A stretch of 64,000 bases of DNA from assembly GCF_009914755.1 (NCBI RefSeq), contig NC_060934.1. The stretch is one strand, 5' to 3'. The notes under the pieces are model-generated. The model was not told the origin of the DNA. It made no database searches and saw only the letters and a program-made list of their open reading frames with translations. Position 1 is the first letter of the stretch, and each line of letters begins with the position of its first letter. Positions 1 to 26,945 of this stretch are shown piece after piece. The stretch comes from the human T2T-CHM13v2.0 reference genome, Homo sapiens. A program made the position numbers and the translations under genes.

Positions 1-569
1 AGGGAGAGCTGTTCACAACTATTACTCTAAGTGGACCCTGAAGGAGCAATTAAATTAAGTGCTTCTTTACTGGGGACTTGCCTGTCATTGGGGTTCACAG
101 AAAGGCCAATTCAGATTTCTAATCCAAATGTGTAGAAAAGGGTGTGGGCCCAAGTGGGGGAGGAGGGACAGCAGGACACATTCTCTGTCCCAGCTCACAG
201 AATCTGGGTCAGGGCAGACCCAGGCTCAGGTGCTCAGAACGTGTCCACACCTGGGGACTGGAGAAAGACTGTCAGGCAGGCAAGTAGCATTTCTGGACTG
301 CTATCCATGGAAGGCGAGGCATGGAGCAAATGTTTCCATGCTTCTCTGTATAAACCACTCTTTCTAACAGAGCTGGCCTCTCCCTGTCCCTCATAAACAG
401 CTTGGATCTTATTTATCCCTGCTTGATCTCATTTCATCCAAATCCCACCCAGATCTAACTCTATCTCCCCTACCAAACCTTCCCTGACTCCCTGGAAGGA
501 AAGGACCACTCTGTCTGCTGAGTCTCTGTCCCATTCAGGGGTTCTCCACCAGGCTCTGGAGGCAATAAC

Positions 570-715
570 ATGGGCTTCAGAGTCTTTCCAGACCTGGGGT
601 AAAATCTCTGAAAGTTACTGGTCATGTGACTTTGGGTGACTGCGCTTAACCTCTCCAGGACTCATTTATAATAATGAAAAGCCTTATCGCCTTATCACAG
701 TACCTAATACAGGAA
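570..715 (+). mobile_element. MIR SINE fragment (degraded)
   Basis: Core-like 'catgtgactttgggtgactgcgcttaacctctcc...tcacagtacctaatacagg'; boundaries approximate. Confidence 0.5.
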
Positions 716-899
716 AGGGGATTGGCAATATTTTATTTCCCTTCTCCCAATTCAGGATGTACGTAGATGTATGTTTTTTCTTCCATATTAGTTAGCAAGC
801 AGAGAGCTGACTAAATATCGATGGGTTTACTATTAAAACGCACTTCAAACAGTTCTAATTTTACTAAGCAGCACTAAACTAAACAGTTCATTAATGGCT

Positions 900-1080
900 T
901 TGAGACTTTACTCTGTTTCTTAAATAGCTGCAGAAACTTGTATAAGTCCGTAGTCTCTCTGAATCCCAATTTTTCAATATATAGAATGGGAATAATTATA
1001 CCTACCTTCAGAATTTTTGCGGGGACTAAATAAGATGACGTACATGAATCCATTTTAGAAACCATGTTAGTTGTCATTAT
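900..1080 (+). mobile_element. MIR SINE fragment
   Basis: 'tctctctgaatcccaatttttcaatatatagaatgggaataattatacctaccttcaga...aaataagatgacgtacatg' matches the MIR core. Confidence 0.65.
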
Positions 1081-1239
1081 GAATGGGTCATCTATAGAAA
1101 TAATTATTCCAAAAAATTCTGCCTTGGCAGTATTAAGCCCAAGCAGATTACCTTTATTTCAACAAAATAAAAGATCCATGAACAAGGAATTCCCTTCCTG
1201 TGATGTTAATAATATGCTACCATTCAGGAATAAATGTGT

Positions 1240-1690
1240 GTTAGGTTAAAAGCTAAACTGTTAACATGAAGAGACCTAAATATACAGTGGCTTCATTTTT
1301 TCTCTTTTGCTCAACAATCTGAAGATATACATAAGTTGTGGGGTAGCTTCCAGACTGATGGGGCAGTCTTGCTCCACTAAGTCATTAAAGGATTTAGGTT
1401 CCTCTCAAATCAATGATTCTTGATCTCCTACGTGATGATTCTCTTTACCATAAAAGTTGCCATAACCTCTACATTTTAGTTGTAAAAAGGGACAATATAG
1501 AAAGCTCAAATAATACAATTTATTTTAAGCAAGTGAGGCAGATATTGTGCACATAACTTCTGCTCATATTTTACAGGCAAAAGTTTAGTTACATTGCTTC
1601 ACCTAGCTGCCAGGGAAGCTGGGAAATGTGGTCAAGCTGGAAAGATACATGTACAGGAAAAAGGGAGAATGGATTTTTGGAAAAAAAACT
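1240..1690 (-). mobile_element. MLT1-family (ERVL-MaLR) solo LTR, old
   Basis: 'ttctgctcatattttacaggcaaaagtttagttacattgcttcacctagctgccagggaagctgggaaatgtggtc' is a typical MLT1J/K/L reverse-strand motif. Confidence 0.55.
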
Positions 1691-2689
1691 AATAATTGCC
1701 ACAAATATGCAAGAGAACTAGAGATAAGGAACTTAGGAATAAAAGACTGGAAGTAAGAATGAATTGTATATGTTACTCCCGAGAACTGAGATTCGAGGAA
1801 GAAAAAAAGGATGATTATATACTTACACAAGAAAGAGGGCGGAAGTGAAAAGAAGAGGGTGAAAGAGGTAAACAGGCAATGAACAGTATTAAAAGTTAAA
1901 AGAGAAAATCAAGGACATGAATTAAAGAGTTATAATATCCTTACAAGGTATCCAGAAAGAGTCAAAAGTGGTGGAACCCTGAAAAATTATGCAGAACCCC
2001 AAAAGTTCCCATTTGATGGAGAAAAATGCTTTGTAGAGTTGTGGAATGACTGACTGAAAGAGAGTAGGATCTGTGCTGCGAGATGACTTGCTGGCCAAGG
2101 AAATGCTTGGAAACTTGGAAAAACTTAGGGATCTGGAGAATGTCATGAGGAGTCCTGCCTGGGCAATACCACTGCTCAATTTTTCCAGGCCTATCCCCTA
2201 ACCTCAGCAAGGACCAGCTATAAAACAATCCTTTTAAAACTTTTTAGTTATTTCTATCACCCAGCCATAGCCTTGGGTGCATTTCATATTTCTCAAGACA
2301 TTCGCCTTCAACTTTCCCAACATATTATCTTGGGCTTGCATCTTACATGATTAAAAAGAGAAATACCATTGTATCAGAGCTCCTCAACTTAATTACTTCC
2401 CATCTCAATCTTTCTACATCTTTAACTTCAGTCTTGGTTGAGCTCCACCCTCTGTGCTTGTTCTTGAGAAACAAGCAAAAGAGCTAAGAAAGGCTTAGAG
2501 CAAACTGGTAAACATTGTTATTTTCTTTTAGGTATCCATATTGCGACAGGGTCTTGATATAATATCCATACTAGGTATAATTTGCATACCAGATATTCAA
2601 AGAAGTAGGAGAATATGGCCATAGTGAGAAAAATAAAATCAACTCAGAAATGACAAAAATAAGAGAACTAGTAGAGACATTAAAATAGT

Positions 2690-2895
2690 AGTGATACAAA
2701 GAGAGGAACAATAAACACTGGGGCCTACTTGAAGTTGGAGGGTAGGAGAAGGGAGAGGAACAGAAAAACAACTATTGGGTACTAGGCTTAGTACCTGAGT
2801 GATGAAATAATAAACAAACTCCTGTGACACGAGTTTACCTACATAACAAACCTGCACATGTACCTCTGAACCTAAGGTAAAAGTTGTAATAAAAT
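2690..2895 (+). mobile_element. L1PA13-16-type 3' end fragment inserted into older L1
   Basis: 3'UTR 'actattgggtactaggcttagtacctgagtgatg...acaaacctgcacatgtacc'; short TSD taaaatagt on both sides. Confidence 0.75.
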
Positions 2896-5363
2896 AAAAT
2901 AGTTGTCATAACTATATTTCATATGCTCAAGAAGCTAGAGAAAAGACTTAGCATATCAAATAGAGACAAAGAAGATATAAAAAGATGAACAATTTCTAGA
3001 GATGAAAACTACAATGTCTGAAATTAATAATACATTGGATGAGATTAACAGTGGATTAGACATTGCAAAAAAATTAGCAAATTAGGGAAAAGTATAATAA
3101 ACCTGCCCAAATGAAATAGAAGTGGAAAAATAAACATAAGAACTGTAAGTGAGCTGTAAGACAACCTCAAATAGCCTAATATACATATAATTAGACCCCA
3201 TAAGGGCATGAGAAATGGGAGAAGAACAGAAAAAAATTTGAATGAATAATGGCTACAATTTTTCTAAATGTAATGAAAAATATAAACCTACAGACTTAAT
3301 AAGCTCAATGAACCCCAAGCACAATAAATATGAAGAAACTCACACCAAGCCACATGATCAAAATCAATAATAAAAATAAAATCTTAAAAACAGGCAGAGT
3401 AAAAAGGCACATTAAGTACAAAGACACAAAGATAAGAATTACAGCAGAGTTTCTATACAATCAGTACAAGCAAGAAGACAGTAGAGAAACACTAAACAGT
3501 ACTGAAAGAAAAAAACTGTCAATGTAGAATTTTACACTCACTAAAAATACCTTCTGAAAATGAAGAAAAAACATTTCACAAATATAAAAGTTAAAGGAAT
3601 TCATCATCAGAAGATATGAACAAAAAAAAAAATGTTAAAGAAAACCCAGAGACTCACAGTGAGACACACTATAATCAAACTCTCAAAAGTCAAAGACAAA
3701 GAGACAATCTTGAAAGCAGCAAAAGAAAGTAACTTGTCATGTAAAAGGAAGCCTTTATAAAATTATCAGTGGATTTATCAACAGAAACCTTGCAGGCCAG
3801 AAGGCAGGGGGATAATATATTCAAAGAGCTGAAAGAAAAGAAAATTTCAACCAAAAATATTATATCCAGCAAAACCATCCTTCAAACATAAAGGAAAAAT
3901 CAGCCTTTCCAGGATGAACAAAAACTGGGGAGTTCATTACCACTGGACCTGCTGTAGTATCTTGCAAGTTGAAACAAAAGGATGCTAAATAGTAACATGA
4001 AGTCTTATGAAAATATAAAGCTCTCCAGTAAAGATAAATATATGGACATATATAGAGACTGTACTATGCAGTTTTGGTACATAAATGCACTTTTAATTCT
4101 TGTATAGAATTTACAAGACAAAAGCTTAAAAATAACTATAAAACTGTGTTAATGAATACATTACATATGAAGATGTAACTTGTGACATAAGTAACCTAAG
4201 GTGAGGGTAGGAGCTTTGAAGAAATAGTTTTTGTACACAGTCGAAGTTATTCTCTTAACAGTTTAAAATAGCTTGTTAACACTTTAAGATGTTTTTTATA
4301 ATTCTTATGGTAACCATAAAAAAATCTATAGAATACACACAAAAGGAAACAGGAAGGGAATCAAAATGTCACCACAAAAAAAATCGACAAAACCCAAAAG
4401 AGGTCAGTAAGAGAAGGAATAAAAAACAAAATTTACAAAACATACAGGAAACAACAAAATGGCAAGTGTAGGTCCTTCCCTATCAGTAATTACTTTAAAT
4501 GTAAATGGATTAAACTCCTGAATCAAAAGATATAGACTGGAAAATGGATTTGTAAAAAGGATCCAACTTTATCCTGTCATTTAGGTCTAAGAAACAAATA
4601 TGCTTAAAATGAAAAAAAGGAAAAGTAAATGCCATGCAAATGGTAAATAAAAGCAAGCAGAAGTGACTATACTACTATCCAACAAAATAGACTTAAAGTC
4701 AAAAATAGTCACAAGACAAAAAAATGGATATTATATAACAAAAAGTCAATTCAGCAGAAAGATATAACAATTACAAATATATATACCTCTAATACCAGAG
4801 CTCCTAAATATCTGAAGCAAACATTGACAGATCAGAGAGGAAACATAAACAGCATAATAATGGTAGGCGACTTCAATTCCTCACTTACAATAATGGCTAG
4901 AACAACAAGACAGAAAATCGATAAGGAAATACAGTACTTGAACAACACTATAAATAGTGCTAACAAACATGTGCAGAACATTCCACCCAATAAAATCAGA
5001 ATAGTATTTTTCTCAAGTTTACATGGAATATTCCCAAAGATAAATCACATGTTATACCACAAAAAAACTTGTAACAAATTTTAAAAGATTGAAATTATAC
5101 AAAATATCTATTTTGATGAAAATGACATAAAACTAGACATCAGTAGCAGAAGGAAAACAAAAAATTCACAAATATGTGAAAATTAAACAACACAGTTTTC
5201 AACAAGCAATGGGTCAAAAAAGAAATCACAAGGGAAGTTAGAAAATATCTTGAGATAAAGGAAAATAAAAATACAATGTACCAAAATGTGTAAGATGCAG
5301 CAGAAGCAGTGCTAACAGAGAATTTTATAGCTATAAATATGTGCATTATAAAAGGAAGAAAGT

Positions 5364-6392: not shown

Positions 6393-8588
6393 TCAATGTA
6401 ATACACTATAGTAATAGAATAAAGGACAAAACAGCATGATCATTTATATTGATGTAGAAAAAATGTTTAACAAAATTTAACACCTTTTATCACGAAAACA
6501 CTCAGCAAACTAGGAATAGAAGGAAAATAACATAATAAAGGCCATATATGAAAAATCCACAGGTAAACTTACACTCAATGGTAAAAGATTCAAACTTTTC
6601 TTCTGGATTAGGAACAAGACAAGTATACTCTGTCTCTTCGCTTCTATTCAATATAGTATTTGAATTTCCAAGCAGACCAATTAGGAAAAAAAAATTAAGC
6701 AAGAAAAGACATCCAAAGAATAAAAGAAAAAAGTAAAATTATCTCTGCTCACAGATGACTTGATCCTATATGCATAAAATCCTAGACTCCTGCATAAAAT
6801 CTAGAAAACTGTTAGATGCATATATGCATAAAATCCAGAAAACTGTTGGAACTATTAAACAAATTCTGGAAAGTTGCAGGATCCAAAATCGACACACAAA
6901 AATCAGTTGCCTTTCTATAAATTAACTATAAACAATCCAAAGGTAATTAAGAAAATAATTTAATTACAATACCATCAAAAATAGTAAAATACTTAGGAAT
7001 AAACTTAGCCAGGGAAATAAAAGGCTTGTACACTGAAAACTACAAAACAGTACTGAAAGAAGTCACAAATAAATGTAAAGACATTGGTATTCATGGATTG
7101 GAAGATTTAATGTTAAGATCTCCAAAATATCAGATGTATTCCCCAAATCTGTACAACATTATGTATTAATGTGAAAAGTCAATAGAACCCAAAGCAGTCT
7201 ACAAATTATATGTAATCCCTATCAAAATCTAAGCTGCATTTTTTGAAAAAAGAGAAAAATTTATCTAAATATTCATATATACTCTGACTAGACAATCTTG
7301 AAAACTAACTGAGTTGAAGGTCTCATGCTCCGTGATCTCAAAACATGTTACAAGACTACAGTAATTAAAACAGCATGACACTGGCTTAAAGAGAGACATA
7401 TAGACCAATGGAATAGAATAAAGAACCCATTAAAAGAAAACTCCACATATATGGTCAAATAATATTTACAGCATTCCAGATCCGCTCAATGAGGGAAGAA
7501 CATTCTCTTCAACAAACAGTGTTGGGAAACTTGGATATCCACACACGAAAGAGTGAAGTTGAAACTTTGTCTTATGCCATATACAAGAATTAACTCAAAA
7601 TGGATTTAAAACTTAAATGGAAGACCTAAAACTATAAAACTCTTAGAATAAGGGGATATGGCAATTATTTTTTAATATGACACCAAAAGTACAGACAACA
7701 AAAGAAAAAATAGACAATTGGGACTACATCAAACTTTTTAAAACTTTTATGCATTAAAGGACATAACAATGTTAAAAAAAACTTGTGGATGGAAGAAAAT
7801 ATTAGTAAATTATATATCTGATAAAGAGTTAATATCCAGAATATATAAATAATTTCTACAACACAATATTTAAAAATAATATGATTTTAAAATGGCAAAA
7901 GGATTTGAATAGACATTTCTTTTAAAATTATATATGAATGGGCAAAAAACATAAGAAAAAATGCTCAGCATCCAAACTGGAAAGGAAATCATTAGAGAAA
8001 TGTAAATCAAAACCACAATGTAATATCTCCTCACAAAAATTGAGTGGTTTACTATTAAGAAAAAGAAATATTAGATAGGATGCAGTTGATAGCAAACAGC
8101 TTAAAAGCAACGTGACCCCAGATACTAACTCAAAGCCACACAAAAAACAAAAAGCTCTGGCAAAGACATTTATTTATATTTTTATTTATGTATTTATTGA
8201 GGGTTTTGCTGTTTTGTTGTTGTTGTTGTTTACTGTTTTATTTTTGCTTTTTCAACTTTTATTTTAGATTCAGAGGGCACTTGTGCAAGTTTGTAACCTG
8301 GGTATATTGTGTGATGTTGAGGTTTGGGGTATGAATGGTCCCATTACCCAGATACTGAGAATAGTACTCAACAGTTTTTCAACACTTTCTCCCTTCCCTC
8401 CTTCACCACCCCAATAGTCCCCAGTGTCTATTGTTGCTATCTTTATGTCCATCAGTACCCAGTGTTTACCTCCCCCTTATGAGTGAGAATATGTGGTATT
8501 TGATTTTCTGTTTCTGTATTTGTTTGCCTAGGATAAAGGCCTCTAGCCAAATCCATGTTGCTGCAAATGACATGATTTTCTTCATTTT

Positions 8589-12274: not shown

Positions 12275-15340
<3,066 letters not shown>

Positions 15341-15866: not shown

Positions 15867-16304
15867 CTAACTGTCAACCAAGGAAGTATGTTCCACACCT
15901 ATACCCATCTGTTTTGGTATTTCATCTCTGCTAAGTGAAAAATTATATGTTTTGTTTTATATTTTACTTCTTTAATTAATGGGAAAGGCTGAACAGCTTC
16001 TCACATGTATTAAATTTGTATGATTATTCTTTTTCTTAATCATTTGCCTGGGTTCTTGCTATGTTAAGAAATTATTTCTTCATCTACCACAAGTTGTAAA
16101 TAGCTTTTCGTTAGTGCGTGTGTGTCTGTGTGTTCAGAAATTTTGAATATTTTATGTGATAACATTAACAAGGCTTTTCTATTGAGGGTTTCAGCTTTTC
16201 TGTCTTGCTAAGAAACACCTTCTTTACTCTAGAATGTTAAAAATACTTAGTGTTTTTACATAATACATTTAAGGTCTAATATTTTATACGTAAAAGTATG
16301 AATC

Positions 16305-16598
16305 AGCAGCTCCTCAAAAATTTAACAGAGAATTACCATACTTATTCAGCAATTTCACTTCTGGGTATTACCCAAAGAGTTGAATACAGGAACTCAACAT
16401 GTTGATGGCAGCAATATTCATGATAGCTAAAATATGGAAGCAACCCAAGTTTCTATTGATGGATAAATGGATAAATAAAAGGTAATATATCTATACAATG
16501 CAATATTATTCAGCTTTAAAAAGGAAGGAAATTCTGACACATGCCACAACATGAATGAAACTTAAAGACATTAGGCTTAGTGAAATAAGTCAGTCACA
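16305..16598 (+). mobile_element. L1MB-type 3' fragment
   Basis: 'aaggaaattctgacacatgccacaacatg...agtgaaataagtcagtcaca'. Confidence 0.75.
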
Positions 16599-16600
16599 TA

Positions 16601-17752
16601 TTTTTCTTCCCTCCCACCTCCTCTAAACCATTGAACAAGTATAGACAGTACTATACTGCTCACAAAGGTGGCTTAACAATTAAATTTCTAAAAGACAGTA
16701 TTTCCTATGAATTTTAGCAAAAAGATATTTACAAAGTGGTATTTTATTACCTCTACATTTAACGTACATCAGGCACTTCTAAACATCTAGATAAACTAGG
16801 TGTTTCAAGTAAGGAGTTAATTTGTCCACTATATACACAGCAGTCTCGAATAAACTGCATACATGTAACCATAGTTATAATTTGAAAGAGTCTTCCAAAT
16901 AAGAACATCCTAGCTTAGAATCCCTCCCATCTCCATCAACTCAGTGCGCAAGAATGCTCAAAGATAGGAAGACAATCTTTCCTAGGAATTTTAAAACAAA
17001 ATATACAAAATATATTAGTTTACTAACTCTACTTTTGTCATACACTGGCAACCTCTTTAACATCTAAAAAGACTAGATGTTGTAAATTAGGACTCGTTTG
17101 TCCTTTATATACACTACATAAACAGATAAGTAAAACAAAATGCACAGACATAAGAGATAATGGTTAATCTTGCCTCACTGTAAACACAGCGGCATAGAGC
17201 TCTCTGCACTTTCCCCTCCTTCCTCCTCCCCTGAACCAGGACACAAACACGATGAGTATTACTCAACAGGTAGTTTGGCCATTCCCCTCCAAAAACAACA
17301 TTTCATATGAATTTTAGCAAAAAGATATTTACAAAATATTATTTTACTACCGCTAATTTTGACATATATTAGGCATTCGGAACACATAGAAAGAATACAC
17401 AAAAAAGTTTAGCATTGTCAACTATATATACAATAGTGAGGAATAAAATGCACACAAAACAATGGATAGAATATGAAAATGTCTAAATATCACAAGTCTG
17501 GTATAGAACCTTCTTTTTCTTCTCAGGCTTTCCAGATCCATGTCCCCTAACCCACTGAACAGATATAGACATATCCCTTACAGAGGTGATCTAACGACTC
17601 TATTTTAAAAAGTCATCTCCAAAAAACATCTAATTTGTATGATTTCTTTTTAAACAAATGAGAATTTACAAGATGTGTGATTTTCTAATTCTATCATATG
17701 TCAGCAACCTCTTTCCATCTAGAAAGACTGAATGTGGCAAATGTTCTCTTTT
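16601..17752 (-). pseudogene. NORAD (LINC00657) lncRNA retrocopy, downstream segment with repeated units and Pumilio response elements
   Basis: Reverse complement matches recalled NORAD sequence (e.g. TCTAGATGGAAAGAGGTTGC, GTTTTGTGTGCATTTTATTCCTCACTA, GGTTCAGGGGAGGAG, GAGTCCTAATT); five TGTAHATA sites; 30-bp repeat at a spacing of 600 bp. Confidence 0.88.
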
Positions 17753-20658
17753 ATTTTTTTAATCTCTTTTAACTTATTTATTTTTATTTTTCTTATTATA
17801 CTTTAAATTCTGGGGTACATGTGCAGAATGTGCAGGTTTGTTACATAGATATACATGTGCCATGGTGGTTTGTTGCACCCATCAACCTGTCATCTACATT
17901 AGGTATTTCCCCTAATGCTATCCCTCCCCAGCCCCCCATAGCCCAACAGGCCCCAGTGTGTGATACCCCCCCAACCCGTGTCCATGTGTTCTCATTGTTC
18001 AACTCCCACTTATGAGTGAGAACATGTGGTGTTTGGTTTTCTGTTCTTGTGTTAGTTTGCTGAGAATGATGGTTTCCACCTTCATCCATGTCTCTGCAAA
18101 GGACATGAGCTCATCATTTTTCATGGCTGCATAGTATTCTGTGGTGTATATGTGCCAGATTTTCTTTATCCAGTCTATCATTGATGGGCATTTGGGTTGG
18201 TTCCAAGTCTTTGCTATTGTGGTATTTCTAGTTCTAGATTCTTGAGGAATCACCACACTGTCTTCCACAATGGTTGAACTAATTTCCACTCCCACCAACA
18301 GTGTAAAAGTGGTCCTATTTCTCCACATGCTCTCTAGTATCTGTTGTTTCTTGACTTTTTAATGATGGCCATTCTAACTGGCATGAAATGGTATCTCATT
18401 GTGTTTTTGATTTGCACTTCTCTAATGACCAGTGATGATGAGCTTTTTTTCCTATGCTTGTTGACTGCATAAATGTTTTCTTTTGAGAAGAGTCTTTTCT
18501 TATCCTTCACCCACTTTTTGATGGAATTGTTTGTTTTTTCTTGTAAATTTGTTTAAGTTCTTTGTAGATTCTGGATATTAGCCCTTTGTTAGATGGATAG
18601 ATTGCAAAAATGTTCTCCCATTCTGTTGGTTGCCTGTTCACTCTGATGGTAGTTACTTTCGCTGTGCAGAAGCTCCTTAGTTTAATTAGATCCCATTTGT
18701 CAATTTTGGCTTTTGTTGCCATTGCTTTTGGTGTTTTAGTCATGAAGTCTTTGCCCATGCCTATGTCCTGAATGGTATTACCTATGTTTTCTTTTAGGGT
18801 TTTTATGGTTTTAGGTCTTACATTTAAGTCTTTAGCCCATCTTGAGTTAATTTTTGTATACAGTGGAAGGAAGGGATCTAGTTTCAGCTTTCTGCATATG
18901 GCTAACCAGTTTTCCCAATGCCATTTATTAAGTAGAGAATCCTTTCCCCATTGCTTGTTTTTGTCAGGTTTGTCAAAGATCAGATAGTTGTAGATGTGTG
19001 GTGTTATTTCTGAGGCCTCTGTTCTGTTCCATTGGTCTATATATCTGTTTTGGTACTAGTACCATGCTGTTTTGGTTACTGCAGCCATGTAGTATAGTTT
19101 AAAGTCAGGTAGTGTGATGCCTCCAGCTTTGTTATTTTTGCTTAAGATTGGCTTGGCTATGCAGGCTCTTTTTTGGTTCTATATGAAATTTAAAGTAGTT
19201 TTTTCCAATTCTGTGAAGAAAGTCAGTGGTAGCTTGATGGGGATAGCATTCAATCTATAAATTACTTTGGATATTATGGCCATTTTCACGATATTGATTC
19301 TTCCTATCCATGAGCATGGAATGTTTTTCCATTTGTTTGTGTCCTCTCTGATGTCATTGAGCAGTGATTTGTAGTTCTCCTTGAAGAGGTCCTTCACATC
19401 CCTTGTAAGTTGGATTCCTAAGTATTTTATTCTCTTTGCAGCAACTGTGAATGGGAGTTCACTCGTGATTTGGCTCTCGGTTTGTCTGTTATTGGTGTAT
19501 AGGAATGCTTGTGATTTTTGCACATTGATTTTGTATCCCGAGACTTTGCTGAAGTTGCTTATCAGCTTAAGGAGATTTTGGGCTGAGATGATGGGGTTTT
19601 CTAAATATACAGTCATGTCATCTGCAAACAGAGACAATTTGACTTCCTCTTTTCCTAATTGAATATCCTTCATTTCTTTCTGTTGCCTGATTGCCCTGGC
19701 CAGAACTCCCAATACTATGTTGAATAGGAGTGGTGAGAGAGGGCATCCTTGTCTTATGCCAGTTTTCAAAGGGAATGCTTCCAGTTTTTGCCCATTCAGT
19801 ATGATATTGGCTGCTGTGGGTTTCTCATAAATAGCTCTGATTGTTTTGAGACATGTTCCATGAATATCTAGTTTATTGAGAGTTTTTAGCGTGAAGGGCT
19901 GTTGAATTTTGTCGAAGGTCTTTTCTGCATCTATTGAGATAATCACATGGTTTTTGTCATTGGTTCTGTTTATGTGATGCATTACGTTCATTAATTTGCA
20001 TATGTTGAACCAGCCTTGCATCCCAGGGATGAAGCCAACTTGATCATGGTGGATAAGCTTTTTGATGTGCTGCTGGATTCGGTTTGCCAGAATTTTACTG
20101 AGGATTTTTGCATCAATATTCATTAGGGATTTCGGCCTGAAATTTTCTTTTTTTGTTGTGTCTCTGCCAGGCTTTGGTATCAGGATGATGCTGGCCTCGT
20201 AAAATGAGTTAGGGAGATTCTCTCTTTTTCTATTGTTTGGAATAGTTTCAGAAGGAATGGTACCAGCTCCTTTTGTACCTCTGGTAGAATTCAGCTGTGA
20301 ATCCGTCTGGTCCTGGACTTTTTTTGGTTGGTAGGCTATTAATTACCACCTCAATTTCAGAGTTTGTTATTGGCTTATTCAGGGATTTGACTTCTTCCTG
20401 GTTTAGTCTTGGGAGGGTGTATGTGTCCAGGAATTTATCCATTTCTTCTAGATTTTCTGGTTTATTTGCATAGAGGTGTTTATAATATTCTCTGATGGTA
20501 GGTTGTATTTCTGTGGGATCAGTGGTGATATCTCCTTTATCATTTTTTATTATGTCTATTTGACTCTTCTCTCTTTTCCTCTTTATTAGTCTGGCTAGTG
20601 GTCTATCTATTTTGTTGATCTTTAAAAAAAAACCAGCTCCTGGATTAATTGATTTTTT

Positions 20659-21097
20659 TTTTTTAATGAGAGATAAATTGTTTAATTTTAGGTTCAGCAG
20701 TTGAACAAGCTTTTTGTGGTTTGGTGGCAGTTTTCTGCCTTGGCATTACAAGGTTACCTCTTGCTAACAATCATAGCTTTTGATAGACTTAGATAAATGT
20801 GTTCAAACAGCTTTTCTCTGTTTGAAGATGCCTGGCTCTCTTTTTTTTTTTTTTTTTTTTAAGACATTTCCAAAGCCTACAGTTAGTGTCTCCATCTGGG
20901 CAAGAGAAAACATGTGAAAGTCTCATTTATGCTGGAAGATAGGGTAGGGTTGAGAGTGATGGTTACAAGAATTTTAACTTTACATCTACAAGAATGTGGT
21001 ACAGATTAAGTCCTTGATAATCATGTTGTATATTTAAAAACATCTATAGATGATTTTATGTAGAATGGGAATTTTAACATTTTATTTGTGTTTATTT
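20659..21097 (-). other. SVA 3' transduction (~430 bp unique sequence with its own poly-A)
   Basis: Lies between the SVA A-rich tail and the left TSD; ATTAAA (20681-20686, minus) 16 nt before the terminal poly-A. Confidence 0.85.
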
Positions 21098-22028
21098 CTT
21101 TTTTTATTTTATTTTATTTTATTTTTATTTTTATTTATTTATTTTTTTATTGATCATTCTTGGGTGTTTCTCGCAGAGGGGGATTTGGCAGGGTCATAGG
21201 ACAATAATGGAGGGAGGGTCAGCAGATAAACAAGTGAACAAAGGTCTCTGGTTTTCCCAAGCAGAGGACCCTGCTGCCTTCCGCAGTGTTTGTGTCCCTG
21301 GGTACTTGAGATTAGGGAGTGGTGATGACTCTTAAGGAGCATGCTGCCTTCAAGCATCTGTTTAACAAAGCACATCTTGCACCACCCTTAATCCATTTAA
21401 CCATGAGTGGACACAGCACATGTTTCAGAGAGCACAGGGTTGGGGGTAAGGTCACAGATCCACAGGATCCCACGGCAGAAGAATTTTTCTTAGTACAGAA
21501 CAAAATGAAAAGTCTCCCCTGTCTACTTCTTTCTACACAGACACGGCAACCATCCGATTTCTCAATCTTTTCCCCACCTTTCCCCCCTTTCTATTCCACA
21601 AAACCGCCATTGTCATCATGGCCCCTTCTCAATGAGCTGTTGGGTACACCTCCCAGACGGGGTGGTGGCTGGGCAGAGGGGCTCCTCACTTCCCAGTAGG
21701 GGCGGCCGGGCAGAGGCACCCCTCACCTCCCGGATGGGGCGGCTGGCCGGGCGGGGGGCTGACCTCCTACCTCCCTCCCGGACGGGGCGGCTGGCCGGGC
21801 AGAGAAAACCAGTCAGGCGTGGCGGCGCGCACCTGCAATCGCAGGCACTCGGCAGGCTGAGGCAGGAGAATCAGGCAGGGAGGTTGCAGTGAGCCGAGAT
21901 GGCAGCAGTACAGTCCAGCTTCGGCTCGGCATCAGAGGGAGACCGTGGAAAGAGAGGGAGAGGGAGACCGTGGGGAGAGGGAGACGGAGAGGGAGACGGA
22001 GAGGGAGAGGGAGAGGGAGAGGGAGAGC
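21098..22028 (-). mobile_element. SVA (C/D-like), internally deleted
   Basis: CCCTCT hexamers ~21950-22028, partial Alu-like domain, short VNTR ~21645-21803, SINE-R ~21150-21645; 16-bp TSD gattaattgatttttt at 20643-20658 and 22029-22044. Confidence 0.93.
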
Positions 22029-25000
22029 GATTAATTGATTTTTTAAGGGTTTTTCATGTCTCTATCTCTTTCAGTTCTGCCCTGATCTTAGTTATCTCTT
22101 GTTTTCTGCTAGCTTTTGAATTTGTTTGCTCTTGCTTCTCTAGTTCTTTTAATTGTGATGTTAGGGTGTCGATTTTAGATCTTTCCTGTGTTCTTTTGTA
22201 GGCAATTACTGCTATAAATTTTCCTCTACACACTGCTTTAAATATGTCCCAGAGTTTCTGGTACATTATTCTTATTGTTTTCAAACAACATCTTTATCCT
22301 TCTTCATTTCATTATTTATCCAGCAGTCATTCAGGAGCAGGTTGTTCAGTTTCCATGTAAGTGTGAGGTTTTGAGTGAGTTTCTTAATTCTGAATTCTAA
22401 TTTAATTGCGCTGTGGTGTGAGAGACTGTTTGTTATGATTTCCATTCTTCTGCATTTGCTGAGGAGTGTTTTACTTCCAATTATGTGGTCAATTTTAGAA
22501 TAAGTGCGATGTGGTGCTGAGAAGAATGTATATTCTGTTGATTTGGGGTGGAGAGTTCTATAGATGTCTATTAGGTCTGCTTAGTCTGGAGCTGAGTTCA
22601 ATTCCTAGATATCCTTGTTAATTTTCTGTCTCATTGACCTGTCTGATATTGACAGTGGGGTATTAAAATCTCCCACTATTATTGTGTGGGAGTCTAAGTC
22701 TCCTTGTAGGTGTTTAAGAACTTGCCTTATGAATCTGGGTGCTCCTGTATTGGGTGCATGTATATTTAGGATAGTTAGCTCTTCTTAGCCACTATGTAAT
22801 GGCTTTCTTTTTCTCTTTTGATCTTTGTTGGTTTAAAGTCTGTTTTATCAGAGACTATGATTGCAACCCCTGTTTGTTTGTTTGTTTGTTTGTTTGTTTG
22901 TTTGTTTTTTGCTTTCCATTTGCTTGGTAAATATTCCTCCATCCCTTTATTTTGGGCCTATGTGTGTTTTTGCATGTGAGATGGGTCTCCTGAATACTGC
23001 ACACTGATGGGTCTTGACTCTTTATCCATGTTGCCAGTCTGTGTCTTTTAATTGGGGCATTTAGCCCATTTACATTTAAGGTTAATATGTTATGTGTAAA
23101 TTTGATCCTATCATTATGATGCTAGCTGGTTATTTTGCCCATTACTTGATGCAGTTTCTTCATAGCGTTGATGGTCTTTACCATTTGGCATGTTTTTGCA
23201 GTGGCTGGCACCATTTTTTCCTTTCCATGCTTATTGCTCCCTTCAGGAGCTCTTGTAATGCAGGCGTGGTGACGACAAAATGTCTCACATTTGCTTGTCT
23301 GTAAAGAATTTTATTTCTCCTTCACTTATGAAGCTTAGTTTGGCTGGATATGAAATTCAGCATTGAAAATTCTTTTCTTTAAGAATGTTGAATATTGGCC
23401 CCTAGTCTCTTCTGGCTTATAGGGTTTCTGCAAGTTGATCTTCAATCTCTGATATCCTTTCTTCCACTTGATCGATTCAGCTATTGATATGTGTGTATGC
23501 TTCACTAAGTTCTTGTGCTGTGTTTTTCAGCTCCATCAGGTCATTTATGTTCTTCTCTAAACTCGTTATTCTAGTTAGCAATTCATCTAATCTTTTTTCA
23601 AGTTTCTTTGCTTCCTTGCGTTGGGTTAGAACATTCTCCTTTAGCTCAGAGGAGTTTGTTATTATCCACCTTTGAAGCCTACTTCTGCCAATTCATCAAA
23701 TTCATTCTCCATCCAGTTTTGTTCCCTTGATGGTGAGAAGTTGTGATTTTTTGGAGAAGAAGAGGCATTCTGGTTTTTGGAATTTTCAGCCTTTTTGTGC
23801 TGGTTTCTCCCCATCTTCATGGATTTACCTACCTTTTGTGTTTGATGTTGGTGACCTTTGGATGGGGTTTCTGAGTGGATGTCCTTTTTGTTGATGTTGA
23901 TGCTATTCCTTTCTGTTTGTTAGTTTTTCTTCTAACAGTCAGGCCTCTCTGCTGCAGGTCTGCTGGAGTGTGCTGGACATCTACTTCAGACCTTGTTTGC
24001 CTGGGTATCACCAGTGGAGGCTGCAGAACAGCAAAGATTGCTGCCTGTTCCTTCCTCTGAAAGCTTTGTCCCAGAGGGGCACCTGCCAGATGCCAGCTGG
24101 AGCTCTCTTGTGTGAGGTGTCTGTTGGCTTCTTCTGGAAGGTATCTCCCGGTCAGGAGGCCAGGGGGTCAGGGACCCACTTGAGGTGGCAGTCTGCTCAA
24201 ACACTGTGCTGGGAGATCCACTGCTCTCTTCAGAGCTGGCAGGCAGGGATGTTAAAATCTGCTGAAGCTGCACCCACAGCTGCCCCTTCCCCCAGGTGCT
24301 CTGTCCCAGAGAGATGGGAGTTTTATCTATAAGTCCCTGACTGGGGCTTCTGCCTTTTTTTCAGAGATGCCCTGCCCAGACAGGAGGAATCTAGAGAGGC
24401 AGTCTTGCTACAGCAGCCTGGCAGCGCTGTGGTGTGTTCCACCCAGTTGGAACTTCCTTGCAGTTTTGTTTACACTGTGAGAGGAACACTGCCTACTCAA
24501 GCCTCAGTAATGGCAGACGCCCCTCCCCATACCAAGCTCCAGCATCCCAGGTCAACTTCAGACTACTGTGCTGGCAGCAAGAATTTCAAGCCAGTGGATC
24601 TTAGCTTGCTGGGCTCCATGGGGGTGGGATCCACTGAGCTAGACCACCTGGTTCCCTGGCTTCGGCCCCCTTTCCAGGGGAGTGAATGGTTCTGTCTCGC
24701 TGACATTCCAGGCATCCCTGGGGTATGAAAAAAGACTCCTGCAGCTACCTTGGTGTCTACCCAAATGGCCACCCAGTTTTGTGCTTGAAACCCAAGACCC
24801 TGGTGGCATAAGCACTGGAGGGAATCTCCTGGTCTGTGGGTTGCAAAGACCATGGGAAAAGCATAGTATCTGGGCTGGAATGCACCACTCCTCATGGCAC
24901 AGCTCCTTACAGCTTCCCTTGGCTAACAGGGGAGTTTTCTGACCCCTTGCACTTCCCAGGTGAGGCAACACCCCACCCTGCCTCAGTTCACCCTCCATGG

Positions 25001-25144
25001 GCTGCACCCACTGTCTAACCAGTCCAAATGAGATGAGCCGGGTACCTCAGTTGGAAATGCAGAAATCACCCACCTTCTGCATTGATCTCACTGTGAGCTG
25101 CACACCTGAGCTGTTTCTATTCAGCCATCTTGTCAGCCTCCCCA

Positions 25145-25866
25145 CAGATGTTATCTATTAAAAGGTTGGGGGTGAGTTGAGAATAGCTTTTTCATAATAT
25201 ACACACAGCCTTCTAGAAGCAGATAGTAAATCTTCCCAAAGTGTGGCGGGCATTTCCCATAGGCCAAATGTGAGGTCCTTCCAGGTCTGGTAGAAGGAAG
25301 ACCAACAGCCCAATGCCTGCTAACTGTTCCACACTGTCCTCCTCTGTGCCTCCACTCACCTTCCAGGCCTGTTAAGGCCATTGTCTGTTGTCCTCAGGAC
25401 TAGGTAAGTCTCGCCCAGCTGGGACAGAGTGGTCACCAGGACCCGGATCTGGCAGCGCCATGGCCTAAAGAGGTGGCTGAGCCCGTGTCCTGCATCCCAA
25501 GAGCACCTTCCCAATCCTCACACCCGGATAGTCACCAAGCTGCCCCTGCCACTCCCACCACCACCCAAAGGCACTGCATCCAGGCTCAGTGGGGACTTCG
25601 TCTATACCCGGCAGGGTGCGGCCTGGGAAAGGCCACCACCACCCTCAGTCACTGAGGTGTAGGGGGAAGGGAGGCTTGCTGCATCTTCAAGGCCCAGGCA
25701 CCCACCCCAAGGGTCCTGGTGGCAGCCACCACAAGGGTCCTGGTGTCACGGGGCAGAGGCTACAGCCTATCCTGGCTCAGCTCCCCCACTGGCCAGGGCA
25801 AAGGCTCAGAAGTCCCAGGGAGCTGGTCCCGCACCATCTCACCACACTCTCTGCTGGATTGGAACT
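25145..25866 (-). pseudogene. NORAD retrocopy, GC-rich 5' segment (CpG-decayed)
   Basis: Reverse complement begins AGTTCCAATCCAGCAGAGAG (recalled NORAD start AGTTCCGGTCCGGCAGAGA) and contains GGTGACCACTCTGTC, CTTACCTAGTCCTGAGGACAAC and GGGAAGATTTACT; contiguous with 17752 across the L1 TSD. Confidence 0.87.
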
Positions 25867-25867
25867 C

Positions 25868-26207
<340 letters not shown>

Positions 26208-26319
26208 TGGACCAGAGGTCTTAATTGTATTTTTGTACCCATATACCAACCTCTCTTCATCCACCTCTCCCAGCTGTCCTTCTCAGACTGTGGAAAGCAT
26301 CCTTCTACTCACTGTTTCC

Positions 26320-26945
26320 ACAGATATTTCATGGACAGCAAATAATCACATGAAAAGATGTTCAAAATTATTAGGTTTTAGGGAAATGCAAATTGAAACA
26401 ACAATAAGCTATCACTACTCATCTATCAGAATGGCTAAAATTAAAAATCATGACACCACCAAATGCTGGTAAGGATGTGTAGAAACCGGATCACTGATAC
26501 ATTACTGATAGAAACATAAAATACTTCATCCACTCTGGGAAATTTTGGGAGTTTCTCAAAGAAAAACACACAACTATCATATGACCCAGCAATTGCACTC
26601 CCAGGCATTTATCCCAGAAAAATAAAAACTTCACACAAAAAACTGTCAAACAAATGTTTATAGCATCTTTGTTTATAATATTAATAGCTAAGAACTAGAT
26701 TCAGCCAAGATGTTTTTCAACAGGTGAATGGGTAAACAAACTGTTGTAAATACATAGCATGGAATACTACTTAGCAATGTAAAGGAATGGATGATTGATG
26801 CATGCAACAACTTGGATGGATTGCCAGGAAATTATGCTGAGCAAAAAACATCAATCCAAAAAGGTTACATAAATGTGATTCTACTTTTATAACATTTTGT
26901 TAAATAACAAAATTTTAGAAGTAGAGGACAGATGACTATCCACTG
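26320..26945 (+). mobile_element. L1MC/MD-type 3' ORF2/3'UTR fragment
   Basis: 'gggaaatgcaaattgaaacaacaat...atgacccagcaattgcactcccaggcatttatcccaga'. Confidence 0.75.

What the first reader, a model, noticed from the sequence alone, without database searches (positions are those of the whole stretch)
16601..25866. Hidden NORAD lncRNA retrocopy, split by an L1, with an intact Pumilio-site cluster
Seen: removing the TSD-bounded L1PA7 joins 25866->25145 to 17752->16601 into ~1.9 kb of minus-strand sequence that starts GC-rich and becomes AT-rich and repetitive. It holds five perfect UGUAHAUA elements within ~710 bp (16726-16733, 16830-16837, 17106-17113, 17326-17333, 17425-17432), plus near-misses at ~17000, ~17663 and ~25195. 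Established: NORAD sequesters PUM1/PUM2 through clustered PREs and has several primate retrocopies. My assignment comes from recalled NORAD sequence. Inference: the copy predates L1PA7 yet retains a dense PRE cluster. It is co-oriented with the L1PA7 promoter and with the candidate host gene, so any read-through or intronic RNA would be a mini-NORAD Pumilio binder. The split may make annotation miss or fragment it.
Basis: partly seen in the sequence, partly recalled or inferred. Interest (0 to 1): 0.8.

Follow-up and report, generated by a model that had tools for sequence, protein, structure and literature searches.

The report
Old, broken NORAD pseudogene fragment
This is an old, truncated and transposon-split dead copy of the NORAD long noncoding RNA, one of dozens in the human genome, and its Pumilio-binding motifs have survived about as often as chance decay predicts.

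Summary
Its functional reading is not supported.

- **Identity.** On the minus strand, window 25866->25144 plus 17752->16603 aligns colinearly with nt 1-1951 of the 5,343-nt NORAD locus on chr20. The AT-rich part is 86% identical.
- **Interruption.** A 7.39-kb full-length L1 with a 15-16-bp target-site duplication splits the copy. The L1 itself carries a nested SVA.
- **Motifs.** Five perfect UGUAHAUA motifs lie where stated. Dinucleotide shuffles give a mean of 0.19.

The copy is an ordinary decayed processed pseudogene:
- At least 43 NORAD-like places turned up in this genome, and the literature already notes the "large number" of NORAD pseudogenes.
- It belongs to the old tier, with about 10% private non-CpG divergence (HCG11 has 4.7%).
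- It lacks NORAD nt 1952-5343, a poly(A) tail and its own duplication.
- Its 5' CpG island has decayed from 73 CpGs to 11.
- It lies outside every annotated transcript, about 10 kb upstream of the OR13A1 start.
- It keeps 5 of 7 ancestral PREs, while 49-53% of control 8-mers are intact (P = 0.21-0.27). That fits neutral decay.

Transcription and Pumilio binding could not be tested here. Interest is low.

The parts
26208..26226 (-). Upstream copy of the Alu target-site duplication. Its last 12 nt look like a decayed second copy of NORAD nt 1-12.
   Evidence: It matches 25873-25855 at 13/19 ungapped positions. Only 19 of 127,982 window 19-mers match it that well. Where the two copies differ, the parental sequence is intermediate by CpG transitions (alignment; inference).
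25868..26207 (-). Alu inserted about 12 nt into the 5' end of the NORAD copy, with an A-rich tail abutting NORAD nt 1.
   Evidence: Rfam SRP/Alu-type hits on the minus strand at 26090-26206 and 25902-26071. Alu cross-matches. Sequence read.
25144..25866 (-). NORAD copy, 5' piece, covering NORAD nt 1 to about 827. GC-rich with decayed CpGs and several deletions of 14-21 nt.
   Evidence: Alignment starts exactly at NORAD nt 1 (= window 25866). 11 CpGs against 73 in parental nt 1-812. Differs from the majority ancestor at 85/393 aligned sites.
25196..25203 (-). Decayed PRE (TGTATATT), orthologous to the NORAD PRE at nt 761.
25144..25159 (-). L1 target-site duplication, 5' copy.
   Evidence: The parent has this stretch once, at nt 812-827.
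17753..25143 (-). Full-length primate L1 (7,391 bp including the nested SVA), same orientation as the NORAD copy, with broken ORFs.
   Evidence: The 5' end and A-rich 3' end were read. Longest open stretches are 165, 387 and 182 aa. The 3' 640 nt are 89-92% identical to the best genomic relatives. The subfamily name was not testable.
21090..22027 (-). SVA-type element nested in the L1: CT-rich hexamer repeats, an Alu-like part, a GC-rich repeat, a SINE-R-like part and an A-rich tail. Coordinates are approximate.
   Evidence: GC 0.61 and 25 CpGs in L1 nt 3001-3500. Sequence read. The name rests on recalled SVA architecture, not on a database match.
17737..17752 (-). L1 target-site duplication, 3' copy.
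16603..17752 (-). NORAD copy, 3' piece, covering NORAD nt 812-1951. AT-rich; holds about four of the ~300-nt NORAD repeat units and all five intact PREs.
   Evidence: 85.6% identity over 1,170 columns to chr20. 9.8% different from the majority ancestor. The recurring YTAGATG unit motif sits at 17722, 17633, 17067 and 16790.
17425..17432 (-). PRE TGTATATA, in the ancestral register of the NORAD PRE at nt 1138 (today's NORAD has it shifted to nt 1140).
17326..17333 (-). PRE TGTAAATA, matching the NORAD PRE at nt 1241.
17117..17124 (-). Decayed PRE (TGTTTATG), orthologous to the NORAD PRE at nt 1442.
17106..17113 (-). PRE TGTATATA, matching the NORAD PRE at nt 1451 (C to T at the free fifth position).
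16830..16837 (-). PRE TGTATATA, an ancestral PRE at about nt 1721 that today's human NORAD has lost.
   Evidence: In one search, 4 other copies show TGTACATA here and 2 show TGTATATA.
16726..16733 (-). PRE TGTAAATA, matching the NORAD PRE at nt 1825.
16300..16598 (+). Fragment of an old L1-type repeat (sense on the plus strand) that abuts the truncated end of the NORAD copy.
   Evidence: 5,697 first-look candidates in the genome, at 74-82% identity. Family members continue past the junction, but that continuation is not next to the copy's other side. The L1 ORF2 assignment is from recall.

Best explanation
The locus is a non-functional processed pseudogene (retrocopy) of the lncRNA NORAD. A NORAD RNA was reverse-transcribed and inserted on the minus strand, starting at the true 5' end of the transcript.

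Later events, in inferred order:
- An Alu inserted about 12 nt from the 5' end.
- A full-length L1 inserted at NORAD nt 812-827, with a 15-16-bp duplication.
- An SVA inserted into that L1.
- Everything beyond NORAD nt 1951 was lost, including 3.4 kb of NORAD, the poly(A) tail and the downstream duplication. A deletion or rearrangement most likely did this, and it now joins the copy to an old L1 fragment.

The sequence has since drifted neutrally. The five PREs are the survivors of seven ancestral ones, not a conserved cluster. The identity, the anatomy and the neutral PRE decay are shown. The order of events, the deletion and the lack of expression are inferred.
For: 1. Identity.
- Colinear alignment to the chr20 locus from nt 1 to nt 1951.
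- The chr20 locus is NORAD by several criteria. It shares a 5,343-nt block with the chr6:26.39 Mb HCG11-like copy. It has 15 UGUAHAUA motifs and 55 CpGs in its first 500 nt. Published NORAD qPCR primers from PMC10480464 (passage read) match it exactly.

2. RNA-mediated origin. Homology starts exactly at transcript nt 1, as it does in four other copies (L014, L028, L029, L031).

3. One of many.
- I counted 37 places and 7 more.
- Tichon 2016 (PMC4947167, passages) reports a 'large number' of NORAD pseudogenes, none apparently expressed except HCG11.

4. Age. The copy shares 2/49 parent-lineage derived states and has 10.7% private non-CpG divergence, against 4.7% for HCG11.

5. Independent lineage. 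No other copy shares more than 13/110 of its rare states.

6. Neutral decay.
- 5 of 7 ancestral PREs are intact, against control 8-mers at 537/1097 and 240/455 (P = 0.21 and 0.27).
- PRE sites changed at 4/42, other non-CpG sites at 193/1403.
- Pooled over 22 copies: 152/1407 against 6835/55313.

7. No promoter signature. 11 CpGs against 73 in the parent.

8. No annotated transcript over the locus (hub table).
Against: - The count of surviving PREs (5/7) is nominally above expectation (about 3.5/7). With seven sites, the test cannot exclude weak constraint.
- Two defining marks of a retrocopy, the poly(A) tail and flanking duplications, are absent because the 3' end is missing.
- NORAD is unspliced, so intron loss gives no information.
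- Expression, CLIP data and primate orthologues could not be examined here, so 'non-functional' is inferred rather than shown.
- A construct of the NORAD 5' module plus two repeat units ('mini-NORAD3/4' and '7/8') de-represses a PRE reporter when over-expressed (PMC7617650, passages). An RNA of this general architecture could therefore act if it were abundant.
Confidence: 0.9

Rival explanations
1. One reading: a working 'mini-NORAD'. Transcription from the L1 5' UTR (or the nested SVA), or read-through from upstream, yields an RNA that carries the five PREs and sequesters PUM1/PUM2.
For: - Five perfect PREs lie within 707 nt on the same strand as the L1 and SVA.
- L1 read-through into 3' flanks is a known phenomenon (general knowledge).
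- Mini-NORAD constructs with the 5' module plus two repeat units work when over-expressed (PMC7617650, passages).
Against: - PRE retention is not above the neutral level.
- No annotated transcript covers the locus, which lies outside the OR13A1 span (hub table).
- CpGs have decayed in the copy's 5' piece and in the L1 5' end: 11 and 3+3 CpGs.
- The L1 ORFs are broken.
- 7.4 kb of L1 and SVA separates the export-related 5' module from the PRE-bearing part.
- NORAD acts through high abundance: about 70 to thousands of copies per cell (PMC4947167, PMC7617650).
- Tichon et al. saw no expression of NORAD pseudogenes other than HCG11.
Confidence: 0.03
2. The 3' truncation at nt 1951 is original, not a later deletion. 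The source would be a short, internally polyadenylated or internally primed NORAD RNA, or a template switch during L1-mediated reverse transcription.
For: Other copies do end inside NORAD with A-runs. Three of the 22 copies examined end at nt 2149-2151 (L030, L034, L037), one at 2593 (L028) and one at 2719 with about 25 A (L038). The window copy ends in GAAA plus two extra A.
Against: - None of the other 21 examined copies ends at nt 1951.
- There is no A-run and no AATAAA within 40 nt upstream of the end. The only AATAAA is at 16748-16743, about 140 nt upstream.
- No duplication of the sequence flanking the 5' end is seen at the 3' junction (by eye).
- The adjoining old L1 fragment is antisense to the copy. 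That rules out the usual L1-3'-end chimera made by template switching.
Confidence: 0.2
3. The locus is a DNA-level (segmental) duplicate of NORAD or of another NORAD pseudogene, not an independent retrocopy.
For: No poly(A) tail and no flanking duplication remain to prove retroposition. The region lies in a rearrangement-prone part of chr10q11 (general knowledge).
Against: - Homology starts exactly at transcript nt 1 and does not extend upstream.
- The locus is single-copy at high identity. The next best hit is 86%.
- No other copy shares more than 13/110 of its rare states.
Confidence: 0.03
4. The motif cluster is a chance product of AT-rich, repetitive sequence.
For: The piece is 33.5% G+C. 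Another AT-rich stretch at 12381-12623 has three TGTATATA motifs without NORAD homology.
Against: None of 2,000 dinucleotide shuffles reached 5; the mean was 0.19. Each of the five motifs aligns to a PRE position of NORAD or of its inferred ancestor.
Confidence: 0.01

Closest known systems
NORAD (LINC00657), chr20, the parent gene
   Same: Colinear sequence over nt 1-1951: the GC-rich 5' module, then about four of the ~300-nt repeat units with PREs at orthologous positions.
   Different: - Only 37% of the transcript is present.
- Identity is about 86% in the AT-rich part and 67-76% in the 5' part.
- The CpG island has decayed (11 CpGs against 73).
- A 7.4-kb L1/SVA and an Alu interrupt it.
- It has 5 PREs against 15.
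- It has no promoter, no poly(A) site of its own and no annotated transcript.
HCG11 (chr6p22), the expressed NORAD retrocopy
   Same: Both are NORAD retrocopies that begin at transcript nt 1.
   Different: - HCG11 is full length (nt 1-5343) and keeps 11/15 PREs.
- It is younger: 4.7% private divergence against 10.7%, and it shares 51/168 parent-derived states against 2/49.
- It is annotated and expressed at about 1/20 of the NORAD level (PMC4947167).
- The window copy is none of these.
The other NORAD processed pseudogenes of the human genome
   Same: Same origin and same neutral decay of PREs. Pooled PRE-site change is 10.8% against 12.4% at other non-CpG sites. Several are also 3'-truncated or interrupted by repeats.
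   Different: Its end point, nt 1951 without an A-run, is unique among the 22 copies examined. It belongs to the older tier.
Engineered mini-NORAD3/4 and mini-NORAD7/8 (PMC7617650)
   Same: The architecture, a 5' module plus a few repeat units with clustered PREs, resembles what this copy would encode if the L1 were removed.
   Different: Those are intact parental sequences over-expressed from plasmids. This copy is diverged and split, and nothing shows it to be transcribed.

Membership tests
NORAD processed pseudogene (retrocopy) | Colinear nucleotide homology to the mature NORAD transcript | tested here: met
   NORAD nt 1-1951 aligns. The AT-rich part is 85.6% identical over 1,170 columns, E = 0.
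NORAD processed pseudogene (retrocopy) | Homology limited to transcribed sequence (starts at the TSS, no promoter homology) | tested here: met
   The alignment starts at nt 1 (= window 25866). Upstream lie an Alu tail and unrelated flank.
NORAD processed pseudogene (retrocopy) | 3' poly(A) tail | tested here: not met
   The copy stops at nt 1951 with only two extra A and then an old L1 fragment. The 3' part is missing, so its absence is uninformative about origin.
NORAD processed pseudogene (retrocopy) | Flanking target-site duplication of the retrocopy itself | tested here: inconclusive
   None is seen at the present ends (by eye). The original 3' junction is gone.
NORAD processed pseudogene (retrocopy) | Loss of introns | not testable with these tools
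   NORAD is unspliced (PMC4947167), so this criterion cannot apply.
Functional Pumilio decoy RNA (NORAD-like) | Cluster of canonical PREs on the transcribed strand | tested here: met
   Five UGUAHAUA within 707 nt on the minus strand and none on the plus strand.
Functional Pumilio decoy RNA (NORAD-like) | Purifying selection on the PREs | tested here: not met
   5/7 PREs retained against 0.49-0.53 of control 8-mers, P = 0.21-0.27. PRE sites changed at 4/42 against 193/1403 elsewhere. Power is low and no orthologues were available.
Functional Pumilio decoy RNA (NORAD-like) | Own promoter or CpG island, and abundant cytoplasmic transcript | tested here: inconclusive
   CpGs have decayed from 73 to 11, and the hub table shows no annotated transcript. 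No expression data could be examined.
Functional Pumilio decoy RNA (NORAD-like) | PUM1/PUM2 binding in cells | not testable with these tools
   No CLIP data were accessible.

The most novel reading that the evidence does not exclude
The PRE-bearing 3' piece (17752->16603) is transcribed in some tissue, by read-through from the co-oriented L1 5' UTR or the CpG-rich nested SVA. As a five-PRE RNA it would add measurably to Pumilio buffering, making it a transposon-driven, primate-specific mini-NORAD. A less dramatic but likelier by-product concerns the set of 40-odd retrocopies as a dated fossil record of NORAD. It shows PRE turnover in the parent (a register shift at nt 1138/1140 and a PRE lost at about nt 1721) and short, internally polyadenylated germline isoforms ending near nt 2150, 2593 and 2719.
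Probability: 0.03. Interest if true: 0.5.

Novelty: new member of a known kind. Interest (0 to 1): 0.1.

Why it matters
It matters little as biology. NORAD pseudogenes are known to be numerous, and this one behaves as neutral DNA.

There are two practical points:
1. Copies like this one attract multi-mapped NORAD RNA-seq and CLIP reads. Both NORAD laboratories already map around them (PMC6407921). One published NORAD primer pair also matches the chr5 copy exactly.
2. Old copies preserve ancestral states of NORAD. They could be used to date when individual PREs, and the Alu inside NORAD, arose or were lost.

Tried and rejected
1. **Rfam scan of 16000-26500.** No NORAD family hit. Only Alu/SRP-type and weak miRNA-like matches inside repeats came up, so identity could not be read from Rfam.
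2. **The repeat finder on the minus strand.** Internal repeats were seen instead as cross-unit BLAST matches.
4. **Chimeric NORAD-L1 retrocopy made by template switching.** Rejected. The repeat abutting nt 1951 is antisense to the copy, has no poly(A) on that side, and shows no matching duplication.
5. **NORAD inserted into the old L1, with the L1 continuing on the far side.** Not found.
   - The continuations of 11 family members do not match next to 26221.
   - 26221-26337 is non-repetitive, and 26338-26933 belongs to a different old repeat family.
6. **An orphan 3' half of this copy elsewhere on chr10.** Not found. A search with NORAD nt 1952-2700 gave only the window itself (a cross-unit match at 68%) and a short 74% piece at 58.59 Mb.
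7. **Naming the L1 subfamily.** No repeat library is on hand. Only the pairwise identity to relatives (89-92%) was obtained.
8. **Literature search for this particular copy.** Three searches were run: 'NORAD + HCG11 + pseudogenes', 'NORAD + retrocopies' and 'NORAD pseudogene'. They returned only general statements about many pseudogenes. Supplements were not read.

Full report
**What is there**

Read on the minus strand, the window holds the five perfect UGUAHAUA motifs at exactly the coordinates given. In the 1,152-nt piece 17752->16601, 2,000 dinucleotide-preserving shuffles gave a mean of 0.19 motifs and never more than 3. The opposite strand has none. The 5' piece is 57% G+C and the 3' piece 33.5%.

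**Identity**

The window's own genome could be searched. The 3' piece hits chr20:37,769,990-37,771,134 (minus strand) at 86%, chr6:26.39 Mb at 85%, and many other places. I fetched 10 kb around the chr20 and chr6 hits.

The two share one block of 5,343 nt. On chr20 that block has 15 UGUAHAUA motifs and 55 CpGs in its first 500 nt. Published NORAD qPCR primers (PMC10480464, passage seen) match it exactly. Tichon et al. describe NORAD as an unspliced 5.3-kb RNA from a CpG-island promoter (PMC4947167, passages). I take chr20 as NORAD and chr6 as HCG11. The chromosome assignments of both genes are recalled, not read.

A global alignment shows the following:
- Window 25866 equals NORAD nt 1.
- The 5' piece runs to nt ~827 at 25144.
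- The 3' piece resumes at nt 812 (17752) and ends at nt 1951 (16603).
- The 15-16 nt present twice (25159-25144 and 17752-17737) are present once in NORAD. They are therefore the target-site duplication of the insert.

**Anatomy around the copy**

- **The insert (17753-25143)** is 7,391 bp. It is a full-length primate L1 with broken reading frames; the longest open stretches are 165, 387 and 182 aa.
- **A nested element** of about 0.95 kb sits inside the L1 at ~22027->21090. It is CpG-rich, with CT-rich hexamers, an Alu-like part and an A-rich tail. I read it as an SVA from recalled architecture.
- **The L1 3' end** is 89-92% identical to its best genomic relatives. The name L1PA7 could not be tested.
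- **An Alu (26207->25868)** abuts NORAD nt 1. The 19 nt before it and the 19 nt after its tail match at 13/19, and only 19 of 127,982 window 19-mers do as well. The Alu therefore probably inserted about 12 nt into the copy and duplicated NORAD nt 1-12.
- **At the other end**, homology stops at nt 1951 with no A-run. The next bases belong to an old, very abundant L1-type repeat lying antisense to the copy (5,697 first-look candidates, 74-82% identity).

Three searches bear on how the 3' end was lost:
- Relatives of that old repeat continue past the junction, but the continuation is not found beside the copy's other flank.
- No orphan NORAD 3' half starting at nt 1952 exists on chr10.
- No other copy ends at nt 1951.

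A later deletion or rearrangement is the most likely cause of the 3' truncation. An originally short copy remains possible, at about 0.2.

**How common and how old**

I counted 37 distinct places, with the parent and the window included, and 7 further ones. The tool scores only the best candidates, so these are lower bounds.

I aligned 22 copies to NORAD: the window, HCG11 and 20 fetched loci.

- The window copy shares the parent's derived state at only 2 of 49 informative sites.
- It has 10.7% private non-CpG divergence. HCG11 shows 51/168 and 4.7%. The youngest copy, on chr5, shows 77/86 and 1.8%.
- No other copy shares more than 13 of its 110 rare states, so it is an independent, old insertion.
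- With commonly quoted neutral rates (recalled), about 10% suggests very roughly 45-90 Myr.

**Are the PREs conserved?**

Today's NORAD has six PREs in nt 1-1951. By strict position the copy keeps three. It keeps a fourth in a register shifted by 2 nt, and has one where NORAD has none.

The other copies resolve this. Older copies show that the ancestral RNA had its PRE at nt 1138, which in the parent has since shifted to 1140. They also show a further PRE at about nt 1721, which the parent has since lost.

- Against a majority-rule ancestor, the copy keeps 5 of 7 PREs.
- Control 8-mers in the same region are intact at 537/1097 (0.49). AT-rich, CpG-free 8-mers are intact at 240/455 (0.53).
- The binomial P is 0.21 and 0.27.
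- At the fixed PRE positions, 4 of 42 sites changed, against 193 of 1,403 other non-CpG sites.
- Over all 22 copies the figures are 152/1,407 and 6,835/55,313. The small deficit is expected, because changes on the parent lineage are counted as differences and are rarer in PREs.

This is neutral decay within the power of seven sites.

**Function**

- The 5' piece has lost its CpG island: 11 CpGs against 73.
- The L1 5' end has few CpGs left.
- The hub table shows no transcript here. It puts the OR13A1 start at 6657, so the copy is not intronic.
- Tichon et al. saw no expression of NORAD pseudogenes other than HCG11.
- NORAD works through abundance, and engineered mini-NORADs work when over-expressed (PMC7617650).
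- An unexpressed or rare RNA with five PREs would not matter.

I could not look at RNA-seq, CLIP or primate orthologues. 'Non-functional' is therefore an inference, held at about 0.9.

**Verdict**

It is not annotated in the RefSeq table supplied, yet it belongs to a class that both NORAD laboratories have already noted as numerous. Three literature searches found no separate description of this copy; supplements were not read.

Noticed in passing
window ~21090-22027 (minus strand), inside the L1: A CpG-rich element of about 0.95 kb is nested in the L1. It has CT-rich hexamer repeats, an Alu-like part, GC-rich repeats and an A-rich tail, which looks like an SVA.
   Followed up: partly
L030 (chr7:23.34 Mb), L034 (chr9:105.95 Mb), L037 (chr2:53.55 Mb), L028 (chr5:25.29 Mb), L038 (chr2:108.87 Mb): Five of the 22 aligned NORAD copies end inside NORAD and are followed directly by an A-run. 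Three end at nt 2149-2151, one at 2593 and one at 2719 with about 25 A. This suggests short, internally polyadenylated NORAD RNAs in the germ line.
   Followed up: partly
NORAD nt 1138-1147 and 1716-1728 (L013, chr20) compared with the copies: Older retrocopies show PRE turnover in the functional gene. The parent's PRE at nt 1140 sat 2 nt upstream in the ancestor. A PRE at about nt 1721 is still TGTACATA or TGTATATA in six other copies as well as in the window, but it is lost in today's human NORAD and in the youngest copies.
   Followed up: partly
NORAD nt ~3651-3960 (L013) compared with L039 (chrX:77.69 Mb): NORAD carries an Alu in its 3' part that HCG11 also has. The old chrX copy joins nt 3650 directly to nt 3961. 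The Alu therefore entered NORAD after the old copies were made and before HCG11.
   Followed up: no
L005/L028 (chr5:25.29 Mb): Both published NORAD qPCR primers (PMC10480464) match this young copy exactly as well as chr20. The copy is 97% identical and covers nt 1-2593. The assay could not tell the two apart if that copy were expressed.
   Followed up: no
window 12381-12623 (minus strand): Three TGTATATA motifs lie in a very AT-rich stretch with no NORAD homology. They are probably compositional.
   Followed up: no
window 26338-26933: An old interspersed repeat of about 600 bp flanks the copy upstream. It has 6,954 first-look candidates at 70-75% identity. The family was not named.
   Followed up: no
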